A stretch of DNA of 64,000 nucleotides from Candidatus Sulfopaludibacter sp. SbA3 (GCA_945903265.1 CAMDNQ010000009.1:75664-139663); one strand, 5' to 3'; shown: positions 3,790-18,986, counted from the first letter of the stretch. The notes: a model not told the origin generated them from the letters alone. A program made the numbers and translations.

Positions 3790-5537
3790 GTCTGGCGAAT
3801 CCGCTCTTCGATGCTGCCGTTGATCGCCGCGCTGCTGAGGATGACTTCGTCGATGGCGTAGCGCTGAAGCGTGTCCTGCAGATGTTCGAGATTGCCCCGT
3901 ACCGGCACGCCCATGATCCAGCGCCGGTGCTTCATCGGGTCGTCGTCCAGAAAGGCGATGGGATTCATCTTCCATCGCGGGTTGGCGCGCATCTCGCGCA
4001 CCAGCGTCTGGCCGAATGCGCCGGCACCACAGACCAGCACGCGCCGGCTTCGCTTATTCCGCGCCGATGCCAGCAGGTTCATCGAACGGAAGGACGCGCG
4101 TGTCGCGACAATGGCGACTGCGAGGAAGAGCGCGTCCAGGACGTACACCGTCCGCGAAAAGCCCTCCAGCCGGTACAAGTACGCCGCGGCCATGATCGAC
4201 AGGAGTGACCCGAAGCCGACGGCCCGAACGACGGTCGACAGATCGCGGAGTCCGAACGTTTCCCACGATCGCCGGTACAGGCCGGAGAGATACATCGCCA
4301 GCAGCTTGCAGCCCAGGACCGCCGGCAACGACAGGGTGAAGTACGGCAGGAAATTATCGAGATCCTGGCCGTCGAAGCGAATCCGGTACGCGAGGTAGTA
4401 CGCCACGGCGATGAGGACGATATCGAGCAGGACCTCGCCGACATGAAACCGGAACGCCAGATCCTTCAGGAACGGAGCGAACGACGATTTCTGGAGCGCA
4501 CGAAAATCCTCGGCGTTATACGCCGGCACACGCGCGAGATAAATCCCGAGCAGGACGATGCCGACGCTGAACAGCGCCACCACAGGCAGCACGGGCTCGA
4601 TGCCGCCGCCCTGCATCACGAACCAGCCGGTGCCGCCCCCGACGATGCCGAGCGCATACAGCACCCGGACGGCGCTCCGCTCCGAGAACCCGAGCGACAC
4701 CAGACGATGCGAGACGTGGTCGGTGCCGCCCTTGGTCGCCTGCCGGCCCGCCAGCCGCCGCAGCACGAGGACGAACGCCGTATCGAAGAGGGGGACGATC
4801 AGGATCAGGACCAAGATGACCGTCGGGCTGATGAACGCCAGCGGGCCGCCGAAACTGGGCACCAGCGAGATCGCCCCAAGAAGGCCGCCGATAAAGAGAC
4901 TCCCGCAATCTCCCATGAACAGGCGCGCGCGGCTGCGGTTCCAGTAGAGAAATCCGAGCAGAGCGCCGGCGAGCGCCACGAGCCACAGCACCAGCGCCGG
5001 GTGGAGAAACTCCGGCAGCAACAGCGCCGCAAAGGCGGCCGCGATCAGCGCCACGCCGGCGGCCAGTCCATCCATGTTGTCGAGGAGGTTCATCGCGTGG
5101 CTGATGCCCGCGAACCACACGATCGCGACAAGCGTGTAGAGCGACGGCAGGGCGTTGCCTGGATCCGTGCCCCCGAGCGCGAGGACGAGAAACGCGCCGA
5201 CGATGAGCGATCCCACCAGCTTGGCGACCGGCGACAGCTGCAGGCGATCGTCGAGCAGCCCGAGGACGAACATGGCGAACGCCGCCGCGGGAACCGGGAG
5301 CCACTCGGCCGGGTCGCCAATCAAATCGGGCTGGAGGAGGATCGCGAGGAATCCGGCGACGGTGCCGGCGGCAATGGCGATGCCGCCCATGGTCGGGGTC
5401 GGGTCGCGGTGCCATCGGTCGGTTCGCGGCGGAACGACCGCGCCCGCCGCGGCCGCATAGCGCCGTACGAGACCGCCGCCCGCGACGCTGCAGGCCGTCG
5501 CGAGGACAAAGACGATCACGTAAAGGACCATCAGCAA
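3738..5537 (-). CDS. polyprenyl-phosphate HexNAc-1-phosphate transferase (WecA/MraY superfamily) fused to a C-terminal 4-TM + Rossmann-like module of the WbaP/CapD N-terminal type
   Basis: Multi-TM N-terminal half with WecA/MraY motifs DDRLQLSP, HAMNLLDNMDGLAAG, LFMGDCGSLFIGG. The C-terminal part has extra TM helices, then RVLVCGAGAFGQTLVREM...IAFLDDDPMKHRRWIMGVPVRGNLEHL, as in the non-catalytic N-terminal regions of WbaP-type transferases and CapD/WbpM. Confidence 0.85.
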   Translation of the reverse strand: MLMVLYVIVFVLATACSVAGGGLVRRYAAAAGAVVPPRTDRWHRDPTPTMGGIAIAAGTVAGFLAILLQPDLIGDPAEWLPVPAAAFAMFVLGLLDDRLQLSPVAKLVGSLIVGAFLVLALGGTDPGNALPSLYTLVAIVWFAGISHAMNLLDNMDGLAAGVALIAAAFAALLLPEFLHPALVLWLVALAGALLGFLYWNRSRARLFMGDCGSLFIGGLLGAISLVPSFGGPLAFISPTVILVLILIVPLFDTAFVLVLRRLAGRQATKGGTDHVSHRLVSLGFSERSAVRVLYALGIVGGGTGWFVMQGGGIEPVLPVVALFSVGIVLLGIYLARVPAYNAEDFRALQKSSFAPFLKDLAFRFHVGEVLLDIVLIAVAYYLAYRIRFDGQDLDNFLPYFTLSLPAVLGCKLLAMYLSGLYRRSWETFGLRDLSTVVRAVGFGSLLSIMAAAYLYRLEGFSRTVYVLDALFLAVAIVATRASFRSMNLLASARNKRSRRVLVCGAGAFGQTLVREMRANPRWKMNPIAFLDDDPMKHRRWIMGVPVRGNLEHLQDTLQRYAIDEVILSSAAINGSIEERIRQTCAALNRPVRRLHMEIR

Positions 5538-5541
5538 GCGT

Positions 5542-7260
5542 TCAACTGCCGGTCGCCCTCGCCAGCGCGCCAGCCTTCTGTTCGTCCAGGACGAACGGGC
5601 GGCGCTCGAGGATACCGTTGCAGATTGTATCCAAGCCGCGGGAGGCTCCCGGCCGCAGCTCCTCGAGCCCCCGCAGCCGCAGCCGGTAGATCGGGAACCC
5701 CGCCCTCGGCTCGACGAACGGAAGCGGAATCATGCGGTTGAAGAAGAAGTGGTACGCGTAGCGCCGGGCGCGCGCCAGATGTGACCCCGTCAGTCGATCC
5801 GCAAACGGCAGCCGGCCGAGAATCTCGAAGTATTCCGCCGGCGTGCTCGCGTCGTACGTCAGCCCCTTGTTGCGAATCCAGGCTTCGCCCGCCACGATGA
5901 CCGGCACACCGACGCTGGTCAGCTCGACCCCCGTCTTGGTGCCGTAGATGATTGCGGCGTTGCAGAGCGACATCAGCGTGTAGGTGCTCATGTCGCTGTC
6001 AGGCGGGACCACGACGATGTTGGGAGGCAGCTGCGGGAGCCGCTTGCGCAGCTCGGCCAGCACCGGCTGGCGCGACTGGGGGAACCCGCTGATCTCCGCC
6101 GGATGGACGCGGATCAGCAGCTGCAGATCGGGGCGCGTCGCGAAGTACTCGCACGTGCGCACCAGCCACTCCACCATGTTCGGAAACGCGTTGGCGGGAT
6201 AGTGCAGCTGGGCATCCCACGTAACGTTGGTCAGCAGCCCGATGACGGGGCGCGCCGGATCCAGCCGGAGACGCCTCGCGGTCTCCGCCGCATCTGTCCG
6301 TTGCGGCCGGTGAAACACAATCCAGTCAAAGAGACCATCGCGGCGGCTGGCGAGATAGCGGCCCAGGGCGGCATCCTCGGCGGGAGACAACTGCCGCTGC
6401 TCCCAGTGGTCGCGCGGCTCCGTCATCAGCGTGTGGTGGTAGGTATCGTCGTGGCTGAAGATGAACCGCCGCTTGCGGTAGGCGACGTTCCAGGCAACCA
6501 CGCGCACCTGTTCGCTGCGCGCGACCTCACCGACAATGCCCCAGGGCACGTAGATGCCGTGTGTGAAGACGGCGGCTTCGAAGCCCACGCTGCGCATCAG
6601 CCGGCGCGACACGTACGCCGTGCGCAGCGCGCCCTCGAGATACCGCCGCAGCACCGCGTCGCCCATCGGCTCCGAGTCCAGCGACCCGCTGGCGAAAAAC
6701 CGGAGCGCCCCGGCATAGGCGTGCTCGCCAATCGCGACGCCGTCGAGCGTGAACGCCTGGATCTCCGCGGCCGGCAGCGTACGCGCGGTTTCCCGAGCCG
6801 CCGCGGCGTCGTCCGGCGTGATCCAGTCGCTGTACTTGTGGACGGTGAAACCGAGCGTCCGGTACACGCGCTCGGCAGGCCACCGGCAGTCCCGGCACAG
6901 ATCGGGCGCCGGGCCGGCCGCGACAAACTGGGTGAGGTTCGGGTAGAAGGAGGCCTCGCACTCGGCGCAGGCCGGGAGCGCGGCGTCGCACAGCAGCACG
7001 TGCACGTCGGCGCCGCGAAACGTCAGCGCGGCGCCCAGCGCGCTTTCCAGGGTGACCGCGTGCGCGTAGCCCCCAATCGAACTCGCGAGGAGGACGCGCC
7101 GGCCGCCGGCCGCGGCGGTCCTCGCGTTCTGCCACATCCGCGCGTCCGCGGAAACGATCGGCTGCCAGTCGGGATAGGCGCCGAAGCGCGCGTGATACCA
7201 GCGGCGCGCCAGCCGCGTCGCGCGCCACAGCGCCGGCAGCCGGCGGATCACACGCCTCAT
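5542..7260 (-). CDS. capsule-biosynthesis KpsS/KpsC-like (Capsule_synth-type) protein; distant member of the HP-motif family of this locus
   Basis: Start ATG 7260 forms an ATGA overlap with the upstream HAD stop. Motif order LLTNVTWDAQL, then LLIRVHPAE, then IIYGTKTGVELTSVGVPVIVAGEAWIRNKGLTYD. This mirrors what I recall of E. coli KpsS (VYNDSQ / KHHPMD / INSTAG...GNALYDIKGLTY). Contains an N-terminal Cys cluster CDAALPACAEC...CRDC. Confidence 0.65.
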   Translation of the reverse strand: MRRVIRRLPALWRATRLARRWYHARFGAYPDWQPIVSADARMWQNARTAAAGGRRVLLASSIGGYAHAVTLESALGAALTFRGADVHVLLCDAALPACAECEASFYPNLTQFVAAGPAPDLCRDCRWPAERVYRTLGFTVHKYSDWITPDDAAAARETARTLPAAEIQAFTLDGVAIGEHAYAGALRFFASGSLDSEPMGDAVLRRYLEGALRTAYVSRRLMRSVGFEAAVFTHGIYVPWGIVGEVARSEQVRVVAWNVAYRKRRFIFSHDDTYHHTLMTEPRDHWEQRQLSPAEDAALGRYLASRRDGLFDWIVFHRPQRTDAAETARRLRLDPARPVIGLLTNVTWDAQLHYPANAFPNMVEWLVRTCEYFATRPDLQLLIRVHPAEISGFPQSRQPVLAELRKRLPQLPPNIVVVPPDSDMSTYTLMSLCNAAIIYGTKTGVELTSVGVPVIVAGEAWIRNKGLTYDASTPAEYFEILGRLPFADRLTGSHLARARRYAYHFFFNRMIPLPFVEPRAGFPIYRLRLRGLEELRPGASRGLDTICNGILERRPFVLDEQKAGALARATGS

Positions 7261-7976
7261 GCAGACGTCGAGTGCGCGGGGTCGCCTGGACCGGGCCGTG
7301 GGTGTCCGTCGATGAGCGCGACGAAGTCCTCCACCGGCGGCAATTCCGCGAATGCCCTCCACGGCTGGTGAGCCTGCAGTTCATCGAGCGTGTACCCGCC
7401 GGTCGCCACGGCAATCGTGCGGGCACTGATCGCATTCGCGCACTCGATATCGTGCGGGGTATCGCCGATGACGAATAGCCGCTCCTCGGCGACGGGCGCC
7501 GCGCGCTTCGCGAGTTCGAGCGCCCGGCGCGCGATCGACGATCGGTCGCCGGCGTCCTCGGCGAACGCTCCGTCGGGAAAGAACTCCGTCAGGTTGTAGT
7601 GCGCGAGCTTGGCGCGCGCGCCGCCCCGCGTGTTGCCGGTCAGCAGGTAGGAACGCACATCCGGGCGGGACCGCAGCCGCTCGAGAATCTCCCGCACGTT
7701 CGGCAGCACGCCCCCGACGCGGAGCGGCAGGCTCGCCGGCAGGAGTTCTTCGTATCGCCGGACCATCCGCTCGAGCAGATCGCCCTCGGGCCGCACCCCC
7801 ACCACGTCGAAAGTCCGGGCGGCAATCTGGTAGTCGGTCATGCCGGCGATCCGGACCTGGGTCCGCAGGTCGAAATCCTGGCCGGTCACTTCCTTCACCG
7901 AGTCATTCCAGGCGAACATCCCCGCCCGGCCCGTCGTGAGCAGCGTGCCGTCGATATCCCAGAAGAGAACGGTCAC
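7257..7976 (-). CDS. HAD-superfamily phosphatase (subfamily IA, phosphoglycolate/NANP-like)
   Basis: GTG 7976 forms a GTGA overlap with the transketolase stop. HAD motifs: I LFWDIDGTL, II LLTGNT, III/IV K...FVIGDTPHDI. The upstream 126 aa of track ORF 7257..8354 are Arg/Gly-rich and overlap the transketolase gene. Confidence 0.8.
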   Translation of the reverse strand: MTVLFWDIDGTLLTTGRAGMFAWNDSVKEVTGQDFDLRTQVRIAGMTDYQIAARTFDVVGVRPEGDLLERMVRRYEELLPASLPLRVGGVLPNVREILERLRSRPDVRSYLLTGNTRGGARAKLAHYNLTEFFPDGAFAEDAGDRSSIARRALELAKRAAPVAEERLFVIGDTPHDIECANAISARTIAVATGGYTLDELQAHQPWRAFAELPPVEDFVALIDGHPRPGPGDPAHSTSA

Positions 7977-9943
7977 GCGAGCTCCGATACCGCCCGGCCG
8001 CGCCGAGCCTGCAGGGCGGTTGTAAACGCCGCCGCGAGCGACGCGATGTCGAGACAGTGGTACTCGAGGACTTCGTCGTTCGTGCCGCATTGCGGCAGCT
8101 CGGTCACCCCGAGCGACGACACGGTCACCGCCGGGTCGAGTCCAAGCCGCGCGATGGCCGCGGCCAGCATCTGCCCCTGGCCGCCGTCCAGGTAGTGATT
8201 GTCGAGCGTCACCACCTGGCGCGCGCCGCCAATGGTGTCCTTCAGCCAGACGGAATCGACGCGATTGAGCCAGGCAAGATTGACGATCTTGATCGTGGCC
8301 CCGGCCTTGCGCTGAACGTCCTCGGCCGCGTGCCACGCGTTGGACAGCAGCCACGGCCCGTACCCGAACACGACGAGGTCGCTGCCGTCACGCACGGTCC
8401 ATCCGCGCCCGACCTGCACGCGCTGGTCTGCGGGATAGGCAAACGGCACCGGCCACTTCACGGAGACGAGACGGAGATACGCGCTCTCCGCGGCGGTCGT
8501 GACGAAGTAGTCGAACAACGCGGTGACTTCGGCTTCGAGAGCCGGTTCGGCCAGCACCAGATTCGGCACCGCGCCCAGCGCGCTGATGTCGCGCACCGAC
8601 TGGTGCGAATGTCCCGGACCGCCAGGCAGCAGGCCGGCGAGGGACCCGACGTAAATCACCTTCGAGCCTTCGCTGCACTGGTTGTAAATCTGCTCGTTGG
8701 GCCGCGCGGCCAGAAAACAGGCGAATGAATGCGCCACCGGCAGGTACGTGCGGTGGGCCATGCCGCAGGCCATCGACACCATGTCCTGCTCCGCGATGCC
8801 GCACTCGACGAACCGCTCGGGGTACTTCTCCGCGAATGGCACAAGCCCGCAGTCCTTCACCAGGTCCGCGTCGAGCACGATCAGGCGGTCGTGACGGCCG
8901 CCCTGGGCGACGAGCGCGTCGCGGTAGGCCGCGATGAGGTTCTGCGTATCGCGCGGCTCGCGCCGCGCCGGCCGGCGGCCGGTGCGGGTGGCCAGCGCGC
9001 CGAGGCCCGCCGCTTCGAAGAGCCTCTGCGCGCGTGTCAGCAGTTCGGCAGACCCGCGCGCGTATTCGTCCTCGGTTGGCGCGCCCGAGTGATACGCGTA
9101 GAGCTCGCCGGCCTTCATCGACGGCCCTTCCATGAAGGACACGCCTTTCCCCTTCACGGTGTCGGCAATGAGGATCTTCGGCCGGTCGGTGACGCCATCG
9201 AGCGCGCGGAACGCCGATGCCAGACCCGCGATGTCATGCCCGTCCACGCGCGAGACGTGCCATCCGAAGGCGCGCAGCTTGGCGTCGAGATCTCCCAGGT
9301 CGCTGACATCGGCCACCCACGTGTCCGACTGGATCTTGTTGCGGTCGACGATGACCACCAGCTCGCCGAGGCGGGCGTGCACCGCCGACGGGAGCGACTC
9401 CCAGAACTGCCCTTCCTGCAACTCGCCGTCGCCGGTCAGCACGAAGATGCGACGCGGCGCGCCCGCGAGACGATTGGCCAGCGCCATCCCCTTCGCCTTC
9501 GAAATGCCCATGCCGAGCGACCCGGTGTTCGCCTGGATGTAGGGCGTCTCGACATGCGGGTGGCCGGGAAGGCCATGCAGGCGACGCAGATGATCGAGCT
9601 TGTCTTCGGGCAGGAGGCCCAGGCCGATGAGCACCGTGTAGAGCGCCGGCGCATCGTGTCCCTTCGACGAGAAGAAAATGTCACACGCCGCCGGCCCCCG
9701 ATCGAGATCGCGGATCTCATTCAGGAAGAGCCAGCTCATGATGTCGAGCGAGCTGAAGCTGGTGCCGAGGTGGCCCGACCACGCGCGCGCAATCATGTAC
9801 AGGACGTTCACCCGCGCCAGCGCCGCGAACGCCTCCGCCGTGAGGCCGGGCGCGAGTCCGGCGGCCCTGAGGCGGCGGAATTCCTGCGCCGGGATGTAGA
9901 CGAGCTCGTCGCTCGCTACCTGATCGAGCTGTTGTTCACCCAT
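7973..9943 (-). CDS. transketolase-family ThDP enzyme (N-terminal, Pyr and C-terminal domains in one 656-aa chain)
   Basis: GHPHVETPYIQANTGSLGMGISKAKG, ThDP motif LTGDGELQEGQFWES, EQDMVSMACGMA. ATG 9943 confirmed; 28-nt overlap with the upstream gene. Confidence 0.85.
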   Translation of the reverse strand: MGEQQLDQVASDELVYIPAQEFRRLRAAGLAPGLTAEAFAALARVNVLYMIARAWSGHLGTSFSSLDIMSWLFLNEIRDLDRGPAACDIFFSSKGHDAPALYTVLIGLGLLPEDKLDHLRRLHGLPGHPHVETPYIQANTGSLGMGISKAKGMALANRLAGAPRRIFVLTGDGELQEGQFWESLPSAVHARLGELVVIVDRNKIQSDTWVADVSDLGDLDAKLRAFGWHVSRVDGHDIAGLASAFRALDGVTDRPKILIADTVKGKGVSFMEGPSMKAGELYAYHSGAPTEDEYARGSAELLTRAQRLFEAAGLGALATRTGRRPARREPRDTQNLIAAYRDALVAQGGRHDRLIVLDADLVKDCGLVPFAEKYPERFVECGIAEQDMVSMACGMAHRTYLPVAHSFACFLAARPNEQIYNQCSEGSKVIYVGSLAGLLPGGPGHSHQSVRDISALGAVPNLVLAEPALEAEVTALFDYFVTTAAESAYLRLVSVKWPVPFAYPADQRVQVGRGWTVRDGSDLVVFGYGPWLLSNAWHAAEDVQRKAGATIKIVNLAWLNRVDSVWLKDTIGGARQVVTLDNHYLDGGQGQMLAAAIARLGLDPAVTVSSLGVTELPQCGTNDEVLEYHCLDIASLAAAFTTALQARRGRAVSELA

Positions 9944-10689
9944 GGATCCTCGTACGGCGCCTGCGGCACCGGCGGCAGGGACGCGTCCCCGCCCGCCACC
10001 ACGCGCTCGGCCACCATCCAGTCATATTGGTCGTTGATATCGAACCCTTCATAGCCTTCGGTGAAAAACGGCACGATCACGTCGCCCGCGATCGTGCGGC
10101 CGTCCGCCACCACCCGCGTCCATGCCATCTCGAGTGACGCGTTCTGCACGTAGACGGGCGGCAGCGCCTGGTACGGCGTGCTGTGCCACGGCTGCCCCTT
10201 CGGCGCACCAGGCAGGAGCGGGGACATGCGATCGCCGTCCACCACCCACATCTTGCCGGGATGCTGCGCGCACTTCTCAACGGCCCGCAGCGAGTCCGCG
10301 CCCGGCTGGCTGCTGAACCGCGACCAGGCCCGGCGGATGGTCGCCGCGGTCCGGAACGGGCTGGTCGGCCGCAGCAGGCTGAAGCACTCCCACGTCCGCC
10401 CCTGGCGCTTCAGCTCCGCCAGTGTGTACTCCACCCACTCGATGTCCGGCGAGGTGTCGCCCGCGAACTGTCCCGGCCGCAGGAACGGCACCTCGGCGCC
10501 GTAATGACGGGCGAGCGCCGCAATCTCCTCTGAATCCGTCGAGACGATGACCGCGTCGAACACGCCGCTCTCGAGCGCCGGCGCGATCGTGTACGCGATC
10601 GCCGGATGCGCCCCGAGCCGCCGCACGTTCTTGCCAGGGACACGCTTGGAACCCTGGCGGGCGGGAATCAAGGCTACCGCTGTGCTCAC
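9916..10689 (-). CDS. acylneuraminate (nonulosonate/ulosonate) cytidylyltransferase family protein
   Basis: VALIPARQGSKRVPGKNVRRLGAHPAIAYTI, VIVSTDSEEIA, LLRPTSPFR (CTP_transf_3 pattern). GTG start at 10689. Confidence 0.85.
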   Translation of the reverse strand: MSTAVALIPARQGSKRVPGKNVRRLGAHPAIAYTIAPALESGVFDAVIVSTDSEEIAALARHYGAEVPFLRPGQFAGDTSPDIEWVEYTLAELKRQGRTWECFSLLRPTSPFRTAATIRRAWSRFSSQPGADSLRAVEKCAQHPGKMWVVDGDRMSPLLPGAPKGQPWHSTPYQALPPVYVQNASLEMAWTRVVADGRTIAGDVIVPFFTEGYEGFDINDQYDWMVAERVVAGGDASLPPVPQAPYEDPWVNNSSIR

Positions 10690-10705
10690 TTCTACGTTCT
10701 CGCTG

Positions 10706-10797
10706 CTCGGTTCGTGTTCACGTGCGGTTCGCCGTTCATGTTCGGCCTTCGCGTTCGACGTTCACGAACCGAACCCCGAACCTGAACACGAACCGAG
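10706..10797. repeat. long imperfect palindrome in the only large intergenic gap (15-bp perfect outer arms, GTTC/GAAC-rich interior)
   Basis: CTCGGTTCGTGTTCA (10706..10720) is the exact reverse complement of TGAACACGAACCGAG (10783..10797). An inner pair is CGGTTCG (10725..10731) / CGAACCG (10765..10771). Across the gap, eight GTTC tetramers are followed by seven GAAC tetramers. Confidence 0.6.
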
Positions 10798-10830
10798 AAG
10801 AGAGAACCCAGAAGCGTGAACGACACGGGT

Positions 10831-12306
10831 TCAGACGCCCTGTGGGTTGTGGTTGATGTAGACGGTCTTCAGGTCCGAGTAGACGTCGAGCGCCTGCGTG
10901 CCCGCCTCGCGCCACCCGTTTCCTGACTGCCGCAATCCGCCGAACGGCATGTGCGGCTCGCTGCCGTAGGTCCCGCCGTTCACGACCGCCACGCCCGACT
11001 GGATGCGGCCGATGAACGCCATCGCGCGATTGATGTTCTGCGTGTGAATCGACGCCGTCAGCCCGAACGGCGAATCGTTGGCGAGCGCGATGGCCTCTTC
11101 GAAGCCGCTGACGCGATAGAGGCACGTGATGGGACCGAACAGTTCCGCGCGCGAAATCTCGTCGTTCGGCCCGACATGCTCGATGATCGTCGGGGCCACA
11201 AAGAACCCGTCGCCGAATGCCTTGCCGGTAAGCCGGTGCCCGCCCGTGAGCACCACCGCTCCTGCAGCCTTCGCGCGATCCACCGACGCCAGCATGCCCG
11301 TCATCTGCTCGCCGTTGATCACCGGACCGTAATCGTCGGTATCCGCGGTGCCGACCTTCAGCTTCGACGCGGCGGCCACGAGCATCTGGCGGAACGCCTC
11401 GTACACCGCGTCGAACACGATGATGCGGCTGCCCGCGGCGCACCGCTGCCCGGCGTTGCTGAACGCGGAGCCCAGCGTCCACGTCACTGCGTTGGCGAGA
11501 TCCGCGTCGTCGCAGACGATGAGTGGATTCTTGCCGCCAAGTTCGAGGCACACTTTCGCGAGCCGGCGCCCGGCGGTCGCGGCAATCCACCGGCCGACTT
11601 CGCAGGAGCCCGTGAAACTGATCACGGCGACGTCCGGATGCTCGACCAGCGGCGCACCCGCCTCTTCGCCCAGGCCGTGAAGCGTGGTGTAGACACCGTC
11701 GGGGACGCCGGCCTCACGGGCGAGCACGCCGAATGCCCAGGCGGAAAGCGGCGTATCTTCCGAGGTCTTCAGAATCGCGGCGTTGCCGCACAGCAGCGCC
11801 GGGAACGCCTTCCAGGCGACATTGGCGATCGGGGTATTCGCAGCGATGATCAGCCCGGCGACACCGAGCGGCTGGCGAATCACCATCGCGGACTTATTGG
11901 GCACCGCGCTCGTCGTCGTCTGGCCGTAGAACCGGCGGCCCTCGCCGGCGACGAAGAATCCCATCTCGATGGCGGCGTCGGTTTCGCCGAGGGCGTCCTT
12001 GCGCGACTTGCCCGTTTCCAGCGCGACGAGCTCCGCGATGGCGCTGCGGTGCTCGCGCATCAGAAGCGCGATCTGACGCAGGATATCGCCCCGCTTCACC
12101 ACGGTTGTCGCGGCCCACGCCGGCTGGGCCTTGAGCCCGGCGCTGACGGCGCGTTCGACATCCGCGGCGCCGGACCGCGCCACCTCGCAGAGCGGCGCGC
12201 CGGTGGCGGGATTGAGCTTCGAGAACGTGCGCCCATCCTGCGAAGGCGCGTCCTGTCCGCCGATCTGATTCAGGACCACCGCGGGAACGGCCGACAGGCT
12301 CACCAT
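10831..12306 (-). CDS. NAD(P)+-dependent aldehyde dehydrogenase family protein
   Basis: 491 aa; ALDH signatures LELGGKNP (catalytic Glu), FSNAGQRCAAGSR (catalytic Cys), EPHMPFGG. Confidence 0.9.
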   Translation of the reverse strand: MVSLSAVPAVVLNQIGGQDAPSQDGRTFSKLNPATGAPLCEVARSGAADVERAVSAGLKAQPAWAATTVVKRGDILRQIALLMREHRSAIAELVALETGKSRKDALGETDAAIEMGFFVAGEGRRFYGQTTTSAVPNKSAMVIRQPLGVAGLIIAANTPIANVAWKAFPALLCGNAAILKTSEDTPLSAWAFGVLAREAGVPDGVYTTLHGLGEEAGAPLVEHPDVAVISFTGSCEVGRWIAATAGRRLAKVCLELGGKNPLIVCDDADLANAVTWTLGSAFSNAGQRCAAGSRIIVFDAVYEAFRQMLVAAASKLKVGTADTDDYGPVINGEQMTGMLASVDRAKAAGAVVLTGGHRLTGKAFGDGFFVAPTIIEHVGPNDEISRAELFGPITCLYRVSGFEEAIALANDSPFGLTASIHTQNINRAMAFIGRIQSGVAVVNGGTYGSEPHMPFGGLRQSGNGWREAGTQALDVYSDLKTVYINHNPQGV

Positions 12307-13112
12307 GCCGTAAACCCGCCGTCGACACGCAGCTCGTGGCCGGTCACATACGTCGAGGCATCCGAGGCGAGGAACACGAGGGGCCCTTTCAGATCCGCCG
12401 CCTGGGCCATGCGGCCCAGCGGAACGCGTGCCGAATACTTCGTCTTGAACGACTCGTCCTGCCCGGCGAGCACGCCGCCGGGCGAGAGCGTGTTGACGCG
12501 CACACCGGATGGTCCCCAGAGGGTTGCAAAGTATTTCGCCAGATTGACCACGGCCGCTTTCGAGGCGCCGTACGCCGGCGATTTCAGGAACGGAAGGTCG
12601 CCGGCAAGGTGATCGTAGAACCGCTGATCGGGCGACACCGACGCATACAGCGACCCGATGTTGATAATGGACCCGCGCGACGCGTCAACCATCCGCTGAC
12701 CCGCAATCTGCGTCACCTGGAACGTGCCGAGCAGATTCACTTCCACCATCCGGCGAAACTGCTCGATTGGCAGGTCGTCGATCCGCGACCGGTTGCCACC
12801 GGAGTCGGGCGGCTGGTCGACGCCAGCGTTATTCACGAGAATCGCCGGTTCGCCAAACTGGCGGACCAGGGCCTCAACCGCCGCTTCGATGGAGGCTCGC
12901 TGCGTCACGTCGCAGTCGAAGCGCCGCAGCCGGTCGCCCGCGCGGCTGGCGAGCGCGGTAAACGCCGGCGAGGGTGCGGCTCCCGGAAGGTCGAGGGCCG
13001 CCACCGTTGCGCCCGCGTCGAGCAAGGCCTCCGCCCAGATGGGACCGAGCTTCCCGGTCGCCCCGGTCACCACCGCGGTACGGCCGTCGAGTTGGAACAG
13101 CGGCTGGCTCAC
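12300..13112 (-). CDS. short-chain dehydrogenase/reductase (classical SDR)
   Basis: TAVVTGATGKLG cofactor loop, NNAG, SLYASVSP...YGASKAA (YxxxK). Confidence 0.9.
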   Translation of the reverse strand: MSQPLFQLDGRTAVVTGATGKLGPIWAEALLDAGATVAALDLPGAAPSPAFTALASRAGDRLRRFDCDVTQRASIEAAVEALVRQFGEPAILVNNAGVDQPPDSGGNRSRIDDLPIEQFRRMVEVNLLGTFQVTQIAGQRMVDASRGSIINIGSLYASVSPDQRFYDHLAGDLPFLKSPAYGASKAAVVNLAKYFATLWGPSGVRVNTLSPGGVLAGQDESFKTKYSARVPLGRMAQAADLKGPLVFLASDASTYVTGHELRVDGGFTAW

Positions 13113-14188
13113 GAACGCGCGAAGGCCGCGCTGGCTTTGCCGCTCAGCACGTCGTAGGACAGCACGTCGTCCTCATGGAGTGCCGCGTTCGTCGTGCGGC
13201 CGATGACCGCCTCCAGTTCGTAGGGCGGAATTCCGCCGCCGGGCGACTTCATCACGATGTCGGCCGCGGTCAGGACGTGGCCGGCCGGGAGGTCGCGCGC
13301 GACCACCAGGCTCTTGCCCATCTTCACGATCGGCGCCTTCTCACTCTCGTAGATCTTCTTCACCCCGTCCCCGAGCGCCTCGTGCGTGCGCTCGAGGTCG
13401 CGAACCAACTTGCGCAGGCCGACCGGCTCGAGCGAGAACGCGTGGTCGGTCCCCTTCATGGCGCGGTTCAGCGTGAAGTGCTTCTCCACGACGCGCGCGC
13501 CGAGCACGTAGGCGGCAACCGACATAGCGATGCCGCTGTCGTGGCCCGAGAACCCGATGACGGCCCCGGGGAACTCGCGGCGGTACTGCTCGATGACGCG
13601 CAGGTCGAGTTCCTCGAACGCGGCCGGATAGCCGGCGGTGCACTGGAGAATGGCGAGCTGCGGGTTGATCGGCATGATCGTGTCGTACACGCGCCGGACG
13701 TCCTCAAACAAGGCGCCGCCGGTGGAGACGATCATCGGCTTGCCGAAGGCGGCGACGTGCTTCAGGAGCGGCAGGCTTTTCACATCGCCCGACGCAATCT
13801 TGTAGGCCGGCATGCCGATCTCTTCGAGGAAGTCGGCGCTGCGGGCGTCGAACGCGGTGGCGAAAAATTCGATGCCCAGCTCTTTCGCATACGCCTGCAG
13901 CTCGACGTACTCCTTCCGTTCGAATTCGAGGAAGGCGCGATGCTCGCCGTAGGTCGGGCCGAAGCTGTTTTCGTTGTCGTACGGCTTGTTATACGCGGCC
14001 CGCGTATACAGCCCCCGGTTGTCGCGCTTCTGGAGCTTCACCGCGTGCGCGCCGGCGAGCTTCGCCTCGTGGAACAGCTCGCGCGCTTTCTGCAGGCTCC
14101 CCTGATGGTTGTGCCCGATTTCCGCAATCACATAGCACGGGGTGCTGTCGCCGATCTCGTGCCGCCCGATGCGCATGCTGCCTGCCAT
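13109..14188 (-). CDS. nonulosonic acid (sialic-acid-type) synthase, NeuB family, resembling the animal NANS (9-phosphate-forming) subtype, with C-terminal SAF domain
   Basis: CYVIAEIGHNHQGSL, KLQKR, FGPTYGEHRAFLEFERKEY, LQCTAGYP, GFSGHDSGIAMSVAAYVLGARVVEKHFTL, KGTDHAFSLEP. ATG 14188 (MAGSMRIGRHEIG). Confidence 0.88.
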   Translation of the reverse strand: MAGSMRIGRHEIGDSTPCYVIAEIGHNHQGSLQKARELFHEAKLAGAHAVKLQKRDNRGLYTRAAYNKPYDNENSFGPTYGEHRAFLEFERKEYVELQAYAKELGIEFFATAFDARSADFLEEIGMPAYKIASGDVKSLPLLKHVAAFGKPMIVSTGGALFEDVRRVYDTIMPINPQLAILQCTAGYPAAFEELDLRVIEQYRREFPGAVIGFSGHDSGIAMSVAAYVLGARVVEKHFTLNRAMKGTDHAFSLEPVGLRKLVRDLERTHEALGDGVKKIYESEKAPIVKMGKSLVVARDLPAGHVLTAADIVMKSPGGGIPPYELEAVIGRTTNAALHEDDVLSYDVLSGKASAAFARS

Positions 14189-14205
14189 CCTGAGTGCTCC
14201 TGTGG

Positions 14206-15126
14206 TTATGTCCGGACCATCGGGCGCAGCTGCGCCACGAGCTGGTCCCACCCGTATTCCTGGGCGATTTCGCGCGCCGACTGGCCGATCCGCGTCGCCT
14301 CGTCAATGCCGGGCAGGCGATCGCACCGGTTGATGTCGATGACGTTCTTCATGTGGGCGATGCCCGCGGGCGAGTGCTCATCCAGGTTCGTGATGACCGC
14401 ACAACCGCACTCCATCGCGGCGTTCACCGTGGTGTTGTTGGCGCGCAGACCTTTTTCGAAGAAGGCGGCCAGAAACGTGCAGTCCATCAGCTGGTTATAG
14501 ACGGCGGTATCCGACAGATACCCCATGAAATACACCTGGCCGTCGAAGAGCGCTTCCAGTTCCTTGAAGCGGACGACGAACGAATCGTCGAAGCTCGTGT
14601 TCTCGTGGAGCGCCGTCGACACGTAGATTGAGTACGTCTGACCGGTCGCCGCGAGCAGATCCCGAAGGCGCCGGTACAGCGGCACGCGAATCTTGTGCGC
14701 CATGCCGAAGGTGAACACCGACAGATCCGACCGCTGAAAGCGCTGCGGGTTGAGAAGCGTACCCGGGCAGAACGACTCCTGGATATCGGGCCGCAGGGGA
14801 CTCAGCTTGTGGAAGAGCTCCCGGTTCCCGCACGACACGCGCGCGGCGGCCGCCACCAGCCGGCGTTCGACCTCCGTCCCGTCGTACGCATGCAGGAACA
14901 GCTCGAAGCGGCCGCGATGCGCGGCGCTCCACATGTCCAGGTCGGCCACATCCGCCGGCGAAAATTCCGACAGCTTCAATGACAGGAGCGGCAGCCGGAA
15001 GTCGCCGAGCTCCACGGCGCGCAGGCCGACCACCGGGACCCCGAATTTCGCGGCGAGGATCTCGTTGAACTTGGCAATCCCGCACGTCCACGGGTTGAGG
15101 TGATATCCGGCGATACAGTCGATCAT
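14206..15126 (-). CDS. hypothetical protein, possibly a divergent GT-B-like transferase
   Basis: 306-aa ORF (MIDCIAGYHLNPWTCGIAKF...). The only family-like feature is the C-terminal FFEKGLRANNTTVNAAMECGCAVITN, reminiscent of the GT4 E-x-F-G...EAMA-x-G-x-PVI motif. Confidence 0.6.
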   Translation of the reverse strand: MIDCIAGYHLNPWTCGIAKFNEILAAKFGVPVVGLRAVELGDFRLPLLSLKLSEFSPADVADLDMWSAAHRGRFELFLHAYDGTEVERRLVAAAARVSCGNRELFHKLSPLRPDIQESFCPGTLLNPQRFQRSDLSVFTFGMAHKIRVPLYRRLRDLLAATGQTYSIYVSTALHENTSFDDSFVVRFKELEALFDGQVYFMGYLSDTAVYNQLMDCTFLAAFFEKGLRANNTTVNAAMECGCAVITNLDEHSPAGIAHMKNVIDINRCDRLPGIDEATRIGQSAREIAQEYGWDQLVAQLRPMVRT

Positions 15127-15187
15127 CAGAAGTTGAACCGGGGTGGCGGAACGCGTGGAGGGCGTCGCGAAGCCCAGGTCCCGCCTG

Positions 15188-16159
15188 CTATGTCCTCGGA
15201 AGTTCTGATTTTACCGTATGTTGGGCGGTCCTGGACTCCACGACGTACCGCGGCCGGCTCCGCACTTCGTCCAGGGCCCGCCACACGTACTCGCCGACCC
15301 CGGCCAGCATCGCGAGGCCGATCCCCGAGAGGACCATCATCGCGCCCAGAAGCACGACGTGCGCGGGCGCCAGCACCCCCAAGGGGAGCCCCAGCGCGCC
15401 TGCGCCAGCCAGCGCCGCGCCCGCGACGGTGAGCACCAGCGCCGTCACCCAGCAGAGAGCCACCGGCACATCGGAAAACGCCGTCACGGAGTCCACGACC
15501 AGCTTGAGCTTCCTGCGGAGGGTCCACCCCGACGCGCCGTGGAGGCGCGCCTGTTTGTCGTACTCAACCTGCTCCTGACGAAAGCCGATCCACGTGATCA
15601 GCGCAAACACGCTGGTGTGGCGCTCGTGAAGCCGCCGGAAGACGTCGATGACCGCCCGGTCGATGAGAAAGAAATCAGCGCCCGCGGCCGGCATATCCTG
15701 CATTCCGACCACCCGCCGCATGATCCAGTAATAGAGGCGGGAGAACACCCCCTCGTGCGAGGCGCCCGGCACGCGGCGGCGCGACGCCCAGACGACGTGA
15801 GCCCCGTTCTGCCAGCGCGCCATCAGCGCCGGGATGACTTCAGGCGGATCCTGAAGGTCGGCGGCGAGGACCACCGCGGCACTCCCCTTCGCCTCGTCCA
15901 GTCCGCAGGTGATCGCCGCGTGTGAACCGCCATTGCGGGCGAGGCGGACGCACCGGACCCTGGGATCTCGAAGGGCAAGCTGCTGCACAGCGTCGAAGGT
16001 CTCGTCGCGCGAGTGATCGTCAACGACGATCCATTCCCAGGTCAGTCCGCCCGGCTCCAGCACCGACCGCAGGCGCTCGTAGAGCACAGGAAGATTGCGG
16101 GCCTCATTCCAGGCGGGCGTAATAACCGAGAGGCTCACGCTGTCCATGCTGGTGCTCAA
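15188..16159 (-). CDS. GT2 polyprenyl-phosphate glycosyltransferase (ArnC/GtrB/DPM1-like) with two C-terminal TM helices
   Basis: LSVITPAWNEARNLPVLYERL, WEWIVVDDHSRDETF, ARNGGSHAAI, ADLQDPPE. C-terminal hydrophobic stretches VPVALCWVTALVLTVAGAALAGAG and HVVLLGAMMVLSGIGLAMLAGVGEYV. Confidence 0.85.
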   Translation of the reverse strand: MSTSMDSVSLSVITPAWNEARNLPVLYERLRSVLEPGGLTWEWIVVDDHSRDETFDAVQQLALRDPRVRCVRLARNGGSHAAITCGLDEAKGSAAVVLAADLQDPPEVIPALMARWQNGAHVVWASRRRVPGASHEGVFSRLYYWIMRRVVGMQDMPAAGADFFLIDRAVIDVFRRLHERHTSVFALITWIGFRQEQVEYDKQARLHGASGWTLRRKLKLVVDSVTAFSDVPVALCWVTALVLTVAGAALAGAGALGLPLGVLAPAHVVLLGAMMVLSGIGLAMLAGVGEYVWRALDEVRSRPRYVVESRTAQHTVKSELPRT

Positions 16160-18317: not shown

Positions 18318-18320
18318 GCT

Positions 18321-18986
18321 CTATCCACCCGCCGGCTCGGTGCGGTACCGCAGCAGCCGCGCTGGGACGCCGGCCACGATCGCCAGCGGAGGGACGTCGT
18401 CGGTCACGACGGCGCCCGCACCGACGATCGACGCCCGGCCCACGCGCACGCCCGGCATCACGACCGCGTTGACGCCGATGTCGGCCCACGCCTCGACCGT
18501 CACCGGCTGGATCTCCAGCTCTGTCTGGATGACCGGCAGCTCGATCGGTTCCCCCGTGTGGGTCGAGCCAAGAACTTTCGCCCCGGGCCCCCATCCCACG
18601 TATTCACCAAGTGTCAGGTGGCGCGCGTCCAGAAACGCGTGGGGGCCGATCCAGGTATGCGCCCCAATCCGGCAGGTGCCGTCGATGCGGCCCTGGATGA
18701 CGGCGTACTCCCCAATGAACACGCCTTCGCCGATCTCGAACGTCTCCGGATGCCGGAACCGCGCACCGCGCTCCACGCGCAACCCGTCTCCGACCTGACG
18801 CACCAGGGCGCGCCACAGCACGCGGCGCATCATGCCGTCGAAGGCCGACTCGCCATCGACACATCGTCCGTACAGCGCCAGCCGCTCTTCAACGGACGTC
18901 GTGGCACGCAGGTGCGCCGCGAGTCCGACTTCGTGGGCGGGGTCGGGAGTGATGACGCGCTGGCCGTGCACGGCGGAGACTTTCAT
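18321..18986 (-). CDS. hexapeptide-repeat (left-handed beta-helix) acyl/acetyltransferase
   Basis: Repeating [LIV]G-x4 hexapeptides: IGEGVFIGEYAVIQG, IGAHTWIGPHAFL, VEAWADIGVNAVVMPGVRVGRASIVGAGAVV. Confidence 0.85.
   Translation of the reverse strand: MKVSAVHGQRVITPDPAHEVGLAAHLRATTSVEERLALYGRCVDGESAFDGMMRRVLWRALVRQVGDGLRVERGARFRHPETFEIGEGVFIGEYAVIQGRIDGTCRIGAHTWIGPHAFLDARHLTLGEYVGWGPGAKVLGSTHTGEPIELPVIQTELEIQPVTVEAWADIGVNAVVMPGVRVGRASIVGAGAVVTDDVPPLAIVAGVPARLLRYRTEPAGG

What the first reader, a model, noticed from the sequence alone, without database searches (positions are those of the whole stretch)
7973..13112. Transketolase, aldehyde dehydrogenase and SDR embedded between the synthase and the cytidylyltransferase
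Transcription order is NANS-like synthase, SDR (12300..13112), ALDH (10831..12306), [palindrome gap], cytidylyltransferase, full-length transketolase (7973..9943), HAD. None of the characterised Neu, Leg, Pse or Kdn pathways uses a ThDP transketolase or an ALDH.

Possible roles:
- building an unusual phosphorylated aldose precursor by C2 transfer;
- oxidising a side-chain aldehyde to a carboxylate;
- ketoreduction of the product.

Any of these would point to a modified or novel ulosonic acid.
Basis: inference. Interest (0 to 1): 0.65.

Follow-up and report, generated by a model that had tools for sequence, protein, structure and literature searches.

The report
Sialic-acid-like pathway with repurposed transketolase
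This soil acidobacterium carries an intact, tightly packed gene set, shared with bacteria of several phyla and some phages. It joins a sialic-acid-type sugar pathway to a remodelled transketolase, a dehydrogenase and an aldehyde dehydrogenase, and it probably makes an undescribed, shortened, doubly acidic surface sugar.

Summary
On the minus strand lie intact, translationally coupled genes for NeuB (13109-14188), SDR (12300-13112), ALDH (10831-12306), CMP-transferase (9916-10689), a 656-aa transketolase-like protein (7973-9943) and a HAD phosphatase (7257-7976).

These are not housekeeping paralogues:
- The genome has a separate bona fide transketolase (NF004559, 896 bits). The locus copy scores 386, below the cut-off of 488.
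- The locus copy belongs to a monophyletic subfamily. It keeps every ThDP-binding and catalytic residue but has lost all sugar-phosphate-binding residues (human R318, S345, H416, R474) and D424.
- In 9 of 9 context look-ups of distant members, and in 23 of 26 metagenome loci, this subfamily sits beside NeuB and/or the CMP-transferase. Loci without the subfamily signature and with comparable flanks show this in 0 of about 15.
- The usual order is NeuB-(phosphatase)-SDR-ALDH-CMP-transferase-TK. A four-gene version occurs on phage contigs.
- Only 13 of 301 sampled Acidobacteriota genomes carry it.

Best reading (inferred, about 45%): a nine-carbon ulosonic acid is made by the 9-phosphate route. 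The NAD-type SDR oxidises C8, the TK removes C8-C9 as a ketol unit, and the ALDH oxidises the C7 aldehyde. The CMP-activated product would be a 3-deoxy-heptulosaric acid. I found no paper describing this.

The parts
13109..14188 (-). NeuB-family ulosonic acid synthase (NeuB + SAF domains). This is the module-specific 'NeuB1' clade, and it probably forms a 9-phosphate product.
   Evidence: Pfam NeuB 255 bits and SAF 46 bits. TIGR03569 scores 292 bits, below the 400 cut-off. It is 44-61% identical to the NeuBs next to most distant TK-subfamily members (32% in L044, 37% in L046) but only 29% identical to the window's second NeuB. ATG at 14188, no internal stops.
12300..13112 (-). Classical SDR, NAD-preferring. 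Proposed C8 dehydrogenase that turns the glycerol side chain into a terminal ketol.
   Evidence: adh_short_C2 161 bits. Motifs TGATGKLG, NNAG and S...YGASK are present, with Asp at the end of beta-2 (ALDL). Best NCBIfam and PDB hits are sugar-acid dehydrogenases (gluconate 5-DH, KduD, mannonate oxidoreductase), all below cut-off. An orthologue at 35-43% identity lies in 8 of the 9 distant TK-subfamily loci looked up and in 16 of 26 metagenome loci.
10831..12306 (-). Aldehyde dehydrogenase. Proposed oxidation of the C7 aldehyde left by the TK to a second carboxylate.
   Evidence: Aldedh 497 bits. Catalytic ELGGKNP Glu and QRCAAGSR Cys are present. The best NCBIfam models are 2,5-dioxovalerate/alpha-ketoglutarate-semialdehyde DH at 412 and 402 bits, far below cut-off. 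Orthologues at 33-62% identity occur in most but not all modules.
10690..10830 (-). 141-nt intergenic hairpin between ALDH and the cytidylyltransferase. It is not part of the conserved module.
   Evidence: RNA fold of 10680-10840 gives -81.3 kcal/mol, z = -5.85 against shuffles. No U-tail terminator is called there. In relatives the gap is 3-57 nt.
9916..10689 (-). CMP-ulosonic acid synthetase (CTP_transf_3).
   Evidence: PF02348 67 bits. PseF model 129 bits, below the 206 cut-off. It is the commonest neighbour of the TK subfamily: 22 of 26 metagenome loci, usually immediately upstream.
7973..9943 (-). Transketolase-like ThDP enzyme of a distinct subfamily. Proposed to remove C8-C9 of an 8-keto-nonulosonic acid as a glycolaldehyde unit.
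   Evidence: Three TK domains. 33% identity to the genome's own housekeeping TK. NF004559 scores 386 bits, below 488, while the housekeeping copy scores 896. It keeps H37, H77, H110, D155, N185, H258 and E366 (human numbering). It has R318I, S345D, H416L, D424P, Q428H and R474S. The subfamily is monophyletic with the signature columns masked.
7257..7976 (-). HAD-IA phosphatase. Proposed ulosonic acid 9-phosphate phosphatase.
   Evidence: HAD/HAD_2 47 bits. Motifs DIDGT, TGN and GDTPHD are present. The GTG overlaps the TK stop. In other lineages it is replaced by a KdsC-type Hydrolase_3 phosphatase directly after NeuB.
14206..15126 (-). Compact GT-B-fold protein. It lies upstream of NeuB in most Vicinamibacterales loci and directly upstream of the SDR in the few where NeuB is absent. 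Probably a glycosyltransferase; not part of the cross-phylum core.
   Evidence: No Pfam hit (weak Glyco_trans_1_4 at E = 0.12). AlphaFold model pLDDT 77.5. Best Foldseek hits are GT-B glycosyltransferases SenB, BshA and PimA at E about 1e-7. Absent from distant modules.
5542..7260 (-). KpsS/KpsC-like (Capsule_synth) protein. Candidate transferase for the CMP-activated product.
   Evidence: PF05159 24 bits. Orthologues follow the TK in Vicinamibacterales, in a cyanobacterial MAG at 54% identity and in 7 of 26 metagenome loci.

Best explanation
The six genes form a dedicated biosynthetic module for a modified, CMP-activated ulosonic acid.

Shown here:
- The genes are intact and translationally coupled.
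- The TK-like gene is a non-housekeeping paralogue. It belongs to a distinct subfamily that is found almost only next to NeuB, an SDR and a CMP-transferase, across distant lineages.

Inferred pathway:
1. The NeuB1-type synthase condenses PEP with a common hexose 6-phosphate (Man-6-P or ManNAc-6-P), giving a nonulosonic acid 9-phosphate.
2. The HAD phosphatase removes the phosphate.
3. The NAD+-preferring SDR oxidises C8-OH. The exocyclic side chain becomes -CH(OH)-CO-CH2OH, which has the D-threo stereochemistry required of transketolase donors.
4. The TK-like enzyme cleaves C7-C8 and carries off C8-C9 as dihydroxyethyl-ThDP, to an unknown acceptor or as glycolaldehyde. A C7 aldehyde is left on the pyranose ring.
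5. The ALDH oxidises this aldehyde to a carboxylate, giving a 3-deoxy-hept-2-ulosaric acid. This has the Dha skeleton; its stereochemistry is not predicted.
6. The CTP_transf_3 enzyme makes the CMP sugar, and the downstream KpsS-like and other transferases install it in a surface glycan.

The order of CMP activation relative to tailoring is unknown.
For: Not housekeeping:
- The genome holds a second TK that passes the NF004559 equivalog cut-off (896 bits). The locus TK does not (386 bits).
- Only 13 of 301 sampled Acidobacteriota species genomes carry the locus type.

Subfamily signature:
- Catalytic His residues, GDG...N and the cofactor Glu are kept.
- The phosphate-binding residues R318, S345, H416 and R474, and also D424, are replaced by I/V, D, L, S/N and P.
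- This holds in about 45 representatives, down to 36% identity.
- The clade is monophyletic, support 0.80, with the signature columns masked.

Synteny:
- About 30 colinear Vicinamibacterales loci.
- 9 of 9 distant look-ups show NeuB, SDR, ALDH and/or CTP3 around the TK.
- 23 of 26 subfamily loci from metagenomes with at least 6 kb of flank carry NeuB or CTP3. Loci without the subfamily signature: 0 of about 15.
- Phage contigs carry NeuB-SDR-CTP3-short TK.

Precursor route:
- The phosphatase type varies (HAD-IA, KdsC-like). A few modules use a NeuC-like epimerase and a different NeuB clade instead. This argues that SDR, TK and ALDH act after the synthase.

Chemistry:
- The SDR has the NAD-type Asp, and its nearest models are sugar-acid penultimate-carbon dehydrogenases.
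- The nearest ALDH models oxidise the terminal aldehyde of a 2-keto-3-deoxy acid.
- Loss of D424 fits a donor whose C4' oxygen is the ring ether.
- Loss of the phosphate site fits a dephosphorylated substrate.
- C7 and C6 of Kdn or Neu5Ac match the 3S,4R rule for TK donors (established stereochemistry; my reasoning).
- Asn-synthase-like amidotransferases lie downstream in some loci (L033, L034, L047), as expected if a new carboxylate is made.
Against: - No enzyme activity, metabolite or glycan structure is available. Every chemical step is inferred from family membership, residues and synteny.
- The SDR and ALDH hits are all far below the curated cut-offs, so their substrate class is only suggestive.
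- The TK gained no conserved basic residue to hold the C1 carboxylate, and its C2 acceptor is unknown.
- ALDH is missing from about 40% of modules and from all phage versions. The diacid therefore cannot be the universal product.
- A phosphatase is not seen in every module.
- In a few Vicinamibacterales the NeuB1 gene lies elsewhere in the genome.
- The clade support of 0.80 is moderate.
Confidence: 0.45

Rival explanations
1. Precursor building, on the logic of rifamycin Rif15. The TK, SDR and ALDH act before NeuB, trimming or rebuilding a sugar into an unusual aldose that the synthase then condenses with PEP. The unusual part of the product would then be its distal end, but it would be made first.
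For: - A cluster-specific TK that supplies an odd aldose phosphate to a PEP-condensing enzyme is known in AHBA/rifamycin biosynthesis (my knowledge, not tested here).
- The module has its own NeuB clade, which could reflect an unusual substrate.
- Cleaving a 5-keto-hexose first and condensing afterwards would give the same final skeleton.
Against: - The TK has lost all phosphate-binding residues, whereas the phosphatase implies that the synthase substrate is phosphorylated.
- TK products are ketoses, and the core contains no isomerase.
- The module also works with a NeuC-type epimerase route.
- Oxidising C5 of a pyranose precursor is harder than oxidising the free exocyclic chain.
Confidence: 0.17
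2. Truncation without a diacid. SDR and TK shorten the side chain as above, but the pathway product is the C7 aldehyde, its alcohol or an amine. The ALDH only removes the released glycolaldehyde, or it acts in a subset of lineages.
For: - ALDH is absent from L042, L043, L070 and all phage modules, while NeuB, SDR, CTP3 and TK persist.
- E. coli AldA-type enzymes are among the PDB hits of the ALDH.
- No phosphate site is left for a sugar-phosphate acceptor, so release of glycolaldehyde is plausible.
Against: - Where present, the ALDH is tightly embedded between the SDR and the CMP-transferase, overlapping the SDR gene by 7 nt.
- It co-varies with the module at 33-62% identity across distant lineages.
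- Asn-synthase-like genes near some modules suggest that a new carboxylate exists.
Confidence: 0.17
3. Chain extension or another rearrangement. The TK adds a C2 ketol to an aldehyde on the ulosonic acid, or on its precursor, and the SDR reduces the new ketone. The product would be a longer (for example eleven-carbon) ulosonic acid.
For: - TKs are reversible.
- The conserved C1-OH-binding histidines show only that a glycolaldehyde unit is handled, not the direction.
- The SDR is always paired with the TK.
Against: - It needs an enzyme to make a sugar aldehyde first, and it leaves the ALDH without a role, or competing with the TK for that aldehyde.
- The SDR looks NAD+-type, that is oxidative.
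- A ketose-phosphate donor would need the lost phosphate site.
Confidence: 0.07
4. The three enzymes make an acyl substituent (glycolyl, glyceroyl or similar) that decorates an amino-nonulosonic acid, rather than altering the carbon skeleton.
For: - TK-like enzymes supply glycolyl units in some natural-product pathways (my knowledge).
- N-glycolyl and N-glyceroyl nonulosonic acids exist.
- The window also encodes aminotransferases and an acetyltransferase.
Against: - The conserved core contains no carrier protein, lipoyl partner, ligase or acyltransferase.
- The aminotransferase and acetyltransferase genes are not conserved with the module.
- The minimal phage module has only NeuB, SDR, CTP3 and TK.
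Confidence: 0.04
5. TK, ALDH and SDR are housekeeping paralogues that merely sit inside the locus.
For: All three belong to large families with central-metabolic members.
Against: - A separate equivalog-grade TK exists in the genome.
- The locus TK lacks the sugar-phosphate site.
- Distribution is patchy, 13 of 301 genomes.
- Synteny with NeuB and CTP3 is conserved across lineages and phages.
Confidence: 0.01

Closest known systems
9-phosphate route to sialic acid and Kdn (vertebrate NANS-NANP-CMAS; Bacteroides thetaiotaomicron Kdn-9-P synthase, phosphatase and CMP-Kdn synthetase)
   Same: A NeuB-family synthase, a HAD-superfamily phosphatase and a CTP_transf_3 cytidylyltransferase are encoded together, with no NeuC-type epimerase in the module.
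   Different: Three extra, co-conserved enzymes (SDR, TK-like, ALDH) are interleaved with these genes. The NeuB scores below the NeuB_NnaB equivalog cut-off. The substrate and the 9-phosphate intermediate are not demonstrated.
Canonical transketolase (EC 2.2.1.1; human TKT, PDB 4KXU and 3MOS; NCBIfam NF004559)
   Same: Three-domain fold, ThDP/Mg2+ motif, cofactor-activating Glu and all active-site histidines. 217 bits to human TKT.
   Different: R318, S345, H416, R474 and D424 are replaced. There are conserved new residues (D97, M145, Y282, D364, P440). It scores below every TK and DXS equivalog cut-off. It is linked to NeuB rather than to pentose-phosphate genes.
Kdo8N pathway of Shewanella (KdnB alcohol dehydrogenase and KdnA aminotransferase act on the terminal carbon of free Kdo before CMP activation; recalled from memory)
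   Same: The distal end of a finished ulosonic acid is tailored by an oxidoreductase and then a second enzyme, encoded beside the sugar's synthase and activation genes.
   Different: The enzyme families differ (metal-dependent ADH and a PLP enzyme there; SDR, ThDP enzyme and ALDH here). No C-C bond is cut in Kdo8N formation.
Catabolic and secondary-metabolic transketolases that cut modified ketoses (sulfo-TK pathway SqwGH, apulose-4-P TK, rifamycin Rif15; recalled from memory)
   Same: The logic is to make or take a ketol, cleave it with a TK, and then oxidise or reduce the resulting aldehyde.
   Different: Those enzymes act on small phosphorylated or sulfonated ketoses in catabolism or shikimate-type pathways. 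None is linked to NeuB or to CMP activation.
Dha (3-deoxy-D-lyxo-hept-2-ulosaric acid) of plant rhamnogalacturonan-II, prasinophyte thecae and Rhizobiaceae LPS cores
   Same: The predicted product has the same skeleton: a 3-deoxy-2-keto seven-carbon diacid. The activated form of Dha is listed as unidentified (PMC3355719). Its occurrence in bacteria is cited in PMC5713287.
   Different: A Kdn- or Neu5Ac-derived product would have the L-arabino configuration, not D-lyxo (my derivation). There is no evidence that plants or rhizobia use this module.

Membership tests
Canonical transketolase (EC 2.2.1.1) | PP, Pyr and C-terminal domains in one chain or two subunits | tested here: met
   Transketolase_N 108 bits, Transket_pyr 83 bits, Transketolase_C 42 bits.
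Canonical transketolase (EC 2.2.1.1) | ThDP/Mg2+ binding (GDG...N), cofactor-activating Glu and the active-site His set (human H37, H77, H110, H258) | tested here: met
   All are conserved in the window protein and across the subfamily.
Canonical transketolase (EC 2.2.1.1) | Sugar-phosphate binding residues (human R318, S345, H416, R474) and the Asp that reads the C2-OH of the acceptor (D424) | tested here: not met
   They are I, D, L, S and P in the window protein. The same pattern holds in about 45 subfamily representatives. Canonical TKs in the same alignment keep R, S, H, R and D.
Canonical transketolase (EC 2.2.1.1) | Passes a curated TK equivalog model | tested here: not met
   The best model is NF004559 at 386 bits against a cut-off of 488. 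The genome's other TK scores 896.
1-deoxy-D-xylulose-5-phosphate synthase (DXS) | Passes the TIGR00204 or PRK05444 models | tested here: not met
   140 bits against 466, and 107 against 395. The C1-OH-binding histidines typical of TK are retained.
NeuB-dependent 9-phosphate ulosonic acid pathway (NANS/Kdn-9-P type) | NeuB-family synthase with a SAF domain | tested here: met
   PF03102 255 bits and PF08666 46 bits.
NeuB-dependent 9-phosphate ulosonic acid pathway (NANS/Kdn-9-P type) | Dedicated HAD-superfamily phosphatase encoded with the synthase | tested here: met
   A HAD-IA gene overlaps the TK stop and has an intact DxDGT motif. KdsC-type phosphatases take its place in other lineages. The activity itself was not tested.
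NeuB-dependent 9-phosphate ulosonic acid pathway (NANS/Kdn-9-P type) | The synthase uses a hexose 6-phosphate and releases a 9-phosphate product | not testable with these tools
   This needs an enzyme assay. The NeuB scores below the NeuB_NnaB and PseI equivalog cut-offs.
NeuB-dependent 9-phosphate ulosonic acid pathway (NANS/Kdn-9-P type) | CMP-activating cytidylyltransferase | tested here: met
   PF02348 67 bits. It is the commonest neighbour of the TK subfamily.
Classical SDR | TGxxxGxG, NNAG and the Ser-Tyr-Lys triad; the residue at the end of beta-2 sets cofactor preference | tested here: met
   TGATGKLG, NNAG and S...YGASK are present. The Asp in ALDL indicates NAD(H).
ALDH superfamily | Catalytic Cys and general-base Glu | tested here: met
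   ELGGKNP and QRCAAGSR are present. No substrate-specific equivalog is reached; the best is 412 bits against a cut-off of 750.
Rifamycin-type aminoDAHP precursor system (Rif15 TK) | TK encoded with a DAHP-synthase-type enzyme and kanosamine genes | tested here: not met
   The condensing enzyme is NeuB. No DAHP synthase or kanosamine kinase appears in any module inspected.

The most novel reading that the evidence does not exclude
SDR, TK-like enzyme and ALDH form an enzymatic equivalent of periodate trimming. They cut C8-C9 off a finished nonulosonic acid and oxidise the stump. This would be the first biosynthetic route to a CMP-activated 3-deoxy-heptulosaric acid (Dha-class diacid) and the first transketolase that works on a non-phosphorylated glycan building block. 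ALDH-less versions, including phage-borne ones, would give seven-carbon aldehyde, alcohol or amine sialic-acid analogues.
Probability: 0.4. Interest if true: 0.85.

Novelty: new variant of a known kind. Interest (0 to 1): 0.72.

Why it matters
Nonulosonic acids shape how bacteria and phages meet hosts, immune systems and each other. Their known diversity comes from changes in stereochemistry and substituents on a nine-carbon skeleton.

A widespread cassette that changes the carbon skeleton itself with a ThDP enzyme would add:
- a new class of surface sugars;
- a new reaction type for transketolases, on a non-phosphorylated, ring-bearing donor;
- a candidate route to heptulosaric acids. The activated form of Dha, the known sugar of this class, is listed as unidentified in the review I read (PMC3355719).

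It also gives a simple sequence signature (S345D, H416L, D424P). With it, proteins now annotated as 'transketolase' can be separated from real pentose-phosphate enzymes.

Tried and rejected
- **Housekeeping hypothesis:** rejected.
- **DXS identity:** rejected by scores and residues.
- **unk306 as a divergent FkbM methyltransferase** (FkbM genes flank several distant modules): no similarity. Its model is a GT-B fold.
- **L040 462-aa protein after the TK as a homologue of the KpsS-like protein:** no similarity.
- **First attempt to read the HAD** used a wrong frame and was corrected.
- **Too-strict E-value limits** gave empty PDB searches, which were repeated.
- **The genome-contig scan** picked clade-specific N-terminal patterns and returned only Vicinamibacteria. 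The representative search and the metagenome scan were needed to reach other lineages.
- **A regex classifier for the TK signature** was too crude and was replaced by alignment-based classification.
- **Literature searches** for transketolase with nonulosonic, NeuB, legionaminic or pseudaminic terms found nothing relevant. Searches for heptulosaric acid found only occurrence data, no bacterial pathway.
- **Dha itself as the product:** considered and set aside. A Kdn- or Neu5Ac-type parent would give the L-arabino isomer, not D-lyxo.

Full report
**What is there**

The window is 64 kb at about 67% G+C. Its closest relatives are MAGs named Vicinamibacterales or Acidobacteriota.

On the minus strand, 5.5-15.1 kb holds an unbroken chain of genes:
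- a 306-aa protein with no family (14206-15126);
- NeuB+SAF (13109-14188);
- a classical SDR (12300-13112);
- an ALDH (10831-12306);
- a 141-nt gap;
- CTP_transf_3 (9916-10689);
- a 656-aa three-domain transketolase-like protein (7973-9943);
- a HAD-IA hydrolase (7257-7976);
- a KpsS-like Capsule_synth protein (5542-7260).

Further downstream come a WecA-like initiating transferase and three more glycosyltransferases. All reading frames are intact. The junctions are -4, -7, +141, -28, -4 and -4 nt.

Upstream lie LegB/LegC-like genes and an acetyltransferase gene. Further on is a second, separate nonulosonic acid set: NeuB2, a NeuC/LegG-type Epimerase_2, a methyltransferase and a second CTP_transf_3 at 24.9-28.7 kb. 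The module under study therefore has its own synthase and its own activating enzyme, and no epimerase.

**Not housekeeping**

The genome is 98.9% complete and has exactly two Transketolase_N matches. The other one is a 617-aa protein about 68 kb away on the same contig. It resembles human TKT, scores 896 bits on the NCBIfam transketolase equivalog NF004559 (cut-off 488), and groups with human TKT in a tree.

The locus protein is 33% identical to that housekeeping copy and scores 386 bits, below the cut-off. Among 301 Acidobacteriota species genomes drawn evenly, only 13 hold a close relative of the locus TK: 6 in the same family, 1 more in the order and 6 in other classes. The distribution is patchy and accessory.

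**A distinct transketolase subfamily**

I aligned the window protein with human TKT, the housekeeping copy and 65 full-length representatives from a search of 1.8 billion proteins.

- Kept in the window protein: H37, H77, H110, D155, N185, H258 and E366 (human numbering). This is the full ThDP and catalytic set, including the histidines that hold the C1 hydroxyl of a ketol donor.
- Replaced: the residues that bind the substrate phosphate (R318, S345, H416, R474) become I, D, L and S. The Asp that reads the acceptor C2-OH (D424) becomes P.
- The same pattern holds in about 45 representatives, from 54% down to 36% identity. Canonical residues reappear abruptly at 35% identity and below.
- Other subfamily-specific conserved positions are D97, M145, Y282, G287, N421 and P440. 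No new conserved Arg or Lys appears.
- With the six signature columns masked, the subfamily is still one clade (46 tips, SH-like support 0.80).

The enzyme should therefore still move a glycolaldehyde unit, but not on an ordinary sugar phosphate.

**Conserved company**

In about 30 Vicinamibacterales loci (TK identity 61-93%) the order unk306-NeuB-SDR-ALDH-CTP3-TK-(HAD)-KpsS-like is the same.

Distant subfamily members (37-46% identity; contigs from 25% to 75% G+C) were looked up one by one:

| Locus | Gene content around the TK |
|---|---|
| L040 | NeuB-KdsC-like phosphatase-SDR-ALDH-CTP3-TK |
| L041 | NeuB-SDR-ALDH-TK-CTP3 |
| L045 | unknown-NeuB-SDR-ALDH-CTP3-TK |
| L046 | SDR-ALDH-CTP3-NeuB-TK |
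| L044 | ALDH-TK-NeuB-NeuC-like epimerase-SDR-CTP3 |
| L042 | NeuB, SDR, CTP3 and TK, no ALDH |
| L043 | NeuB, SDR, CTP3 and TK, no ALDH |
| L047 | SDR-TK, with NeuB nearby |
| L050 (cyanobacterial MAG) | ALDH...CTP3-TK-HAD-KpsS-like, at 54-65% identity to the window proteins |

A metagenome scan gave 80 further TK loci. I classified them by alignment. Of 26 subfamily loci with at least 6 kb of flank:
- 23 carried NeuB or CTP3;
- NeuB was in 19, CTP3 in 22, SDR in 16, ALDH in 15 and a phosphatase in 11;
- the usual order was the one above.

None of about 15 loci without the subfamily signature (2 canonical, the rest unclassifiable low scorers) and with similar flanks did.

The NeuBs next to the TK form their own group (44-61% identical to each other, 29% to NeuB2), except in L044 and L046. 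Named sources of close subfamily members include Gammaproteobacteria, Parcubacteria, a cyanobacterium and Sideroxyarcus.

In a few Vicinamibacterales the NeuB1 gene has moved elsewhere in the genome, next to a TRAP transporter gene, while the rest of the block stays in place.

**How it most likely works**

The invariant core is NeuB, SDR, TK and CTP3. A phosphatase and the ALDH are frequent additions.

- A phosphatase of either of two HAD types follows or accompanies NeuB in most modules. NeuC-type epimerases are rare. This is the logic of the NANS or Kdn-9-P route, starting from a common hexose 6-phosphate.
- The SDR has the Asp that marks NAD+ preference. Its nearest, sub-threshold models are gluconate 5-dehydrogenase, KduD and mannonate oxidoreductase. 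These enzymes oxidise the penultimate carbon of sugar acids.
- Oxidising C8 of Kdn or Neu5Ac gives an exocyclic -CH(OH)-CO-CH2OH. Read from C9, C7-OH and the C6 oxygen have the 3S,4R arrangement that transketolase donors need. This follows from the D-glycero-D-galacto configuration and is my reasoning.
- C7-OH is free only in ulosonic acids of nine or more carbons. In Kdo the corresponding oxygen is the ring ether. This explains why the partner is NeuB rather than KdsA.
- Cleavage leaves a C7 aldehyde on the ring. The nearest models of the ALDH oxidise the terminal aldehyde of 2-keto-3-deoxy acids, so it would make a second carboxylate.
- The lost phosphate site fits a dephosphorylated donor. 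The lost D424 fits a ring-ether oxygen at C4' of the donor.
- The module also occurs with a NeuC route and a different NeuB. Together with the lost phosphate site, this favours tailoring after the synthase rather than precursor building.
- Asn-synthase-like amidotransferases lie near TK genes in L033, L034 and L047. This is a weak hint of a new carboxylate.

None of these chemical steps is shown. I put the full scheme at about 45%. The broader claim, that this is a dedicated module for a novel CMP-activated ulosonic acid, I put at about 85-90%.

**Weak points**

- The C2 acceptor is unknown.
- No basic residue has appeared to hold the C1 carboxylate.
- ALDH is missing from about 40% of modules, so the diacid cannot be the only product.
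- Some modules show no phosphatase.
- The SDR and ALDH assignments rest on sub-threshold similarities.
- The point of CMP activation is open.
- The product's stereochemistry cannot be read from sequence. A Kdn-type parent would give the L-arabino isomer, not Dha itself.

**Context genes**

The 306-aa protein upstream of NeuB models as a compact GT-B fold. The model has pLDDT 77.5, and the best matches are SenB, BshA and PimA at E about 1e-7. It is confined to Vicinamibacterales, so it is probably a lineage-specific glycosyltransferase. The KpsS-like protein travels with the module across distant lineages and is the best candidate for the dedicated transferase.

**Known or new**

Full-text searches that combined transketolase with nonulosonic, NeuB, legionaminic, pseudaminic or sialic acid synthase terms found no paper linking them. 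Heptulosaric acid appears in the literature only as Dha, a component of plant, algal and Rhizobiaceae polymers, and its activated form is listed as unidentified.

Earlier AI notes of this scan, on about 30 other genomes, describe the same cassette and reach the same reading. I reached mine before reading them (note). They are leads, not independent evidence.

Noticed in passing
L097 (metagenome contig Ga0114930_10004681) 666-8220; IMG/VR loci L131-L134: A phage terminase large subunit gene is directly followed by NeuB, SDR, CTP_transf_3, a short (433-aa) TK of the same subfamily that lacks the C-terminal domain, and an FkbM methyltransferase. Four IMG/VR viral contigs, one of them 44.7 kb, carry the same four-gene order NeuB-SDR-CTP3-short TK, without ALDH or phosphatase.
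   Followed up: partly
window 10690-10830: The only sizeable gap in the operon folds into a very stable long hairpin as RNA (-81.3 kcal/mol for 10680-10840, z = -5.85) with no U-tail. Relatives have only 3-57 nt here, so it looks like a lineage-specific inserted palindromic element, not part of the module.
   Followed up: partly
window 16156-18986 and 24875-28718: There is a second, separate nonulosonic acid pathway: LegB-like dehydratase, PseC/LegC-like aminotransferase, hexapeptide acetyltransferase, and further on NeuB2, a NeuC/LegG-type Epimerase_2, a methyltransferase and a second CTP_transf_3. NeuB2 is only 29% identical to the module's NeuB.
   Followed up: partly
L048 9517-10644 and L049 9454-10710 (genomes of L016 and L025): In some Vicinamibacterales the NeuB1-type gene is missing from the block. 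It sits alone elsewhere in the genome, upstream of a DctM-type TRAP transporter gene (61% identity to the window NeuB1).
   Followed up: partly
L034 12292-14316, L033 about 13734-15677, L047 12645-14522: Glutamine-dependent Asn-synthase-like amidotransferases lie just downstream of the TK in the HAD-less Vicinamibacterales loci and in a 75% G+C locus. They may amidate a carboxylate of the product.
   Followed up: no
L050 (Cyanosarcina radialis MAG contig) 5005-14357: A cyanobacterial MAG (45% G+C) carries ALDH, CTP3, TK, HAD and the KpsS-like gene at 54-65% protein identity to the acidobacterial ones. A methyltransferase and a radical-SAM/SPASM gene are inserted, and no NeuB or SDR lies within 10 kb. 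This suggests recent cross-phylum transfer of the sub-block.
   Followed up: partly
L016 6516-7571; L019 6427-9132: In some relatives an extra roughly 350-aa ORF (weak 2OG-Fe(II) oxygenase hit) sits between the SDR and the ALDH. In L019 an open frame runs from there into the ALDH gene, giving a 901-aa ORF. This is either an additional tailoring enzyme or a start-site artefact.
   Followed up: no
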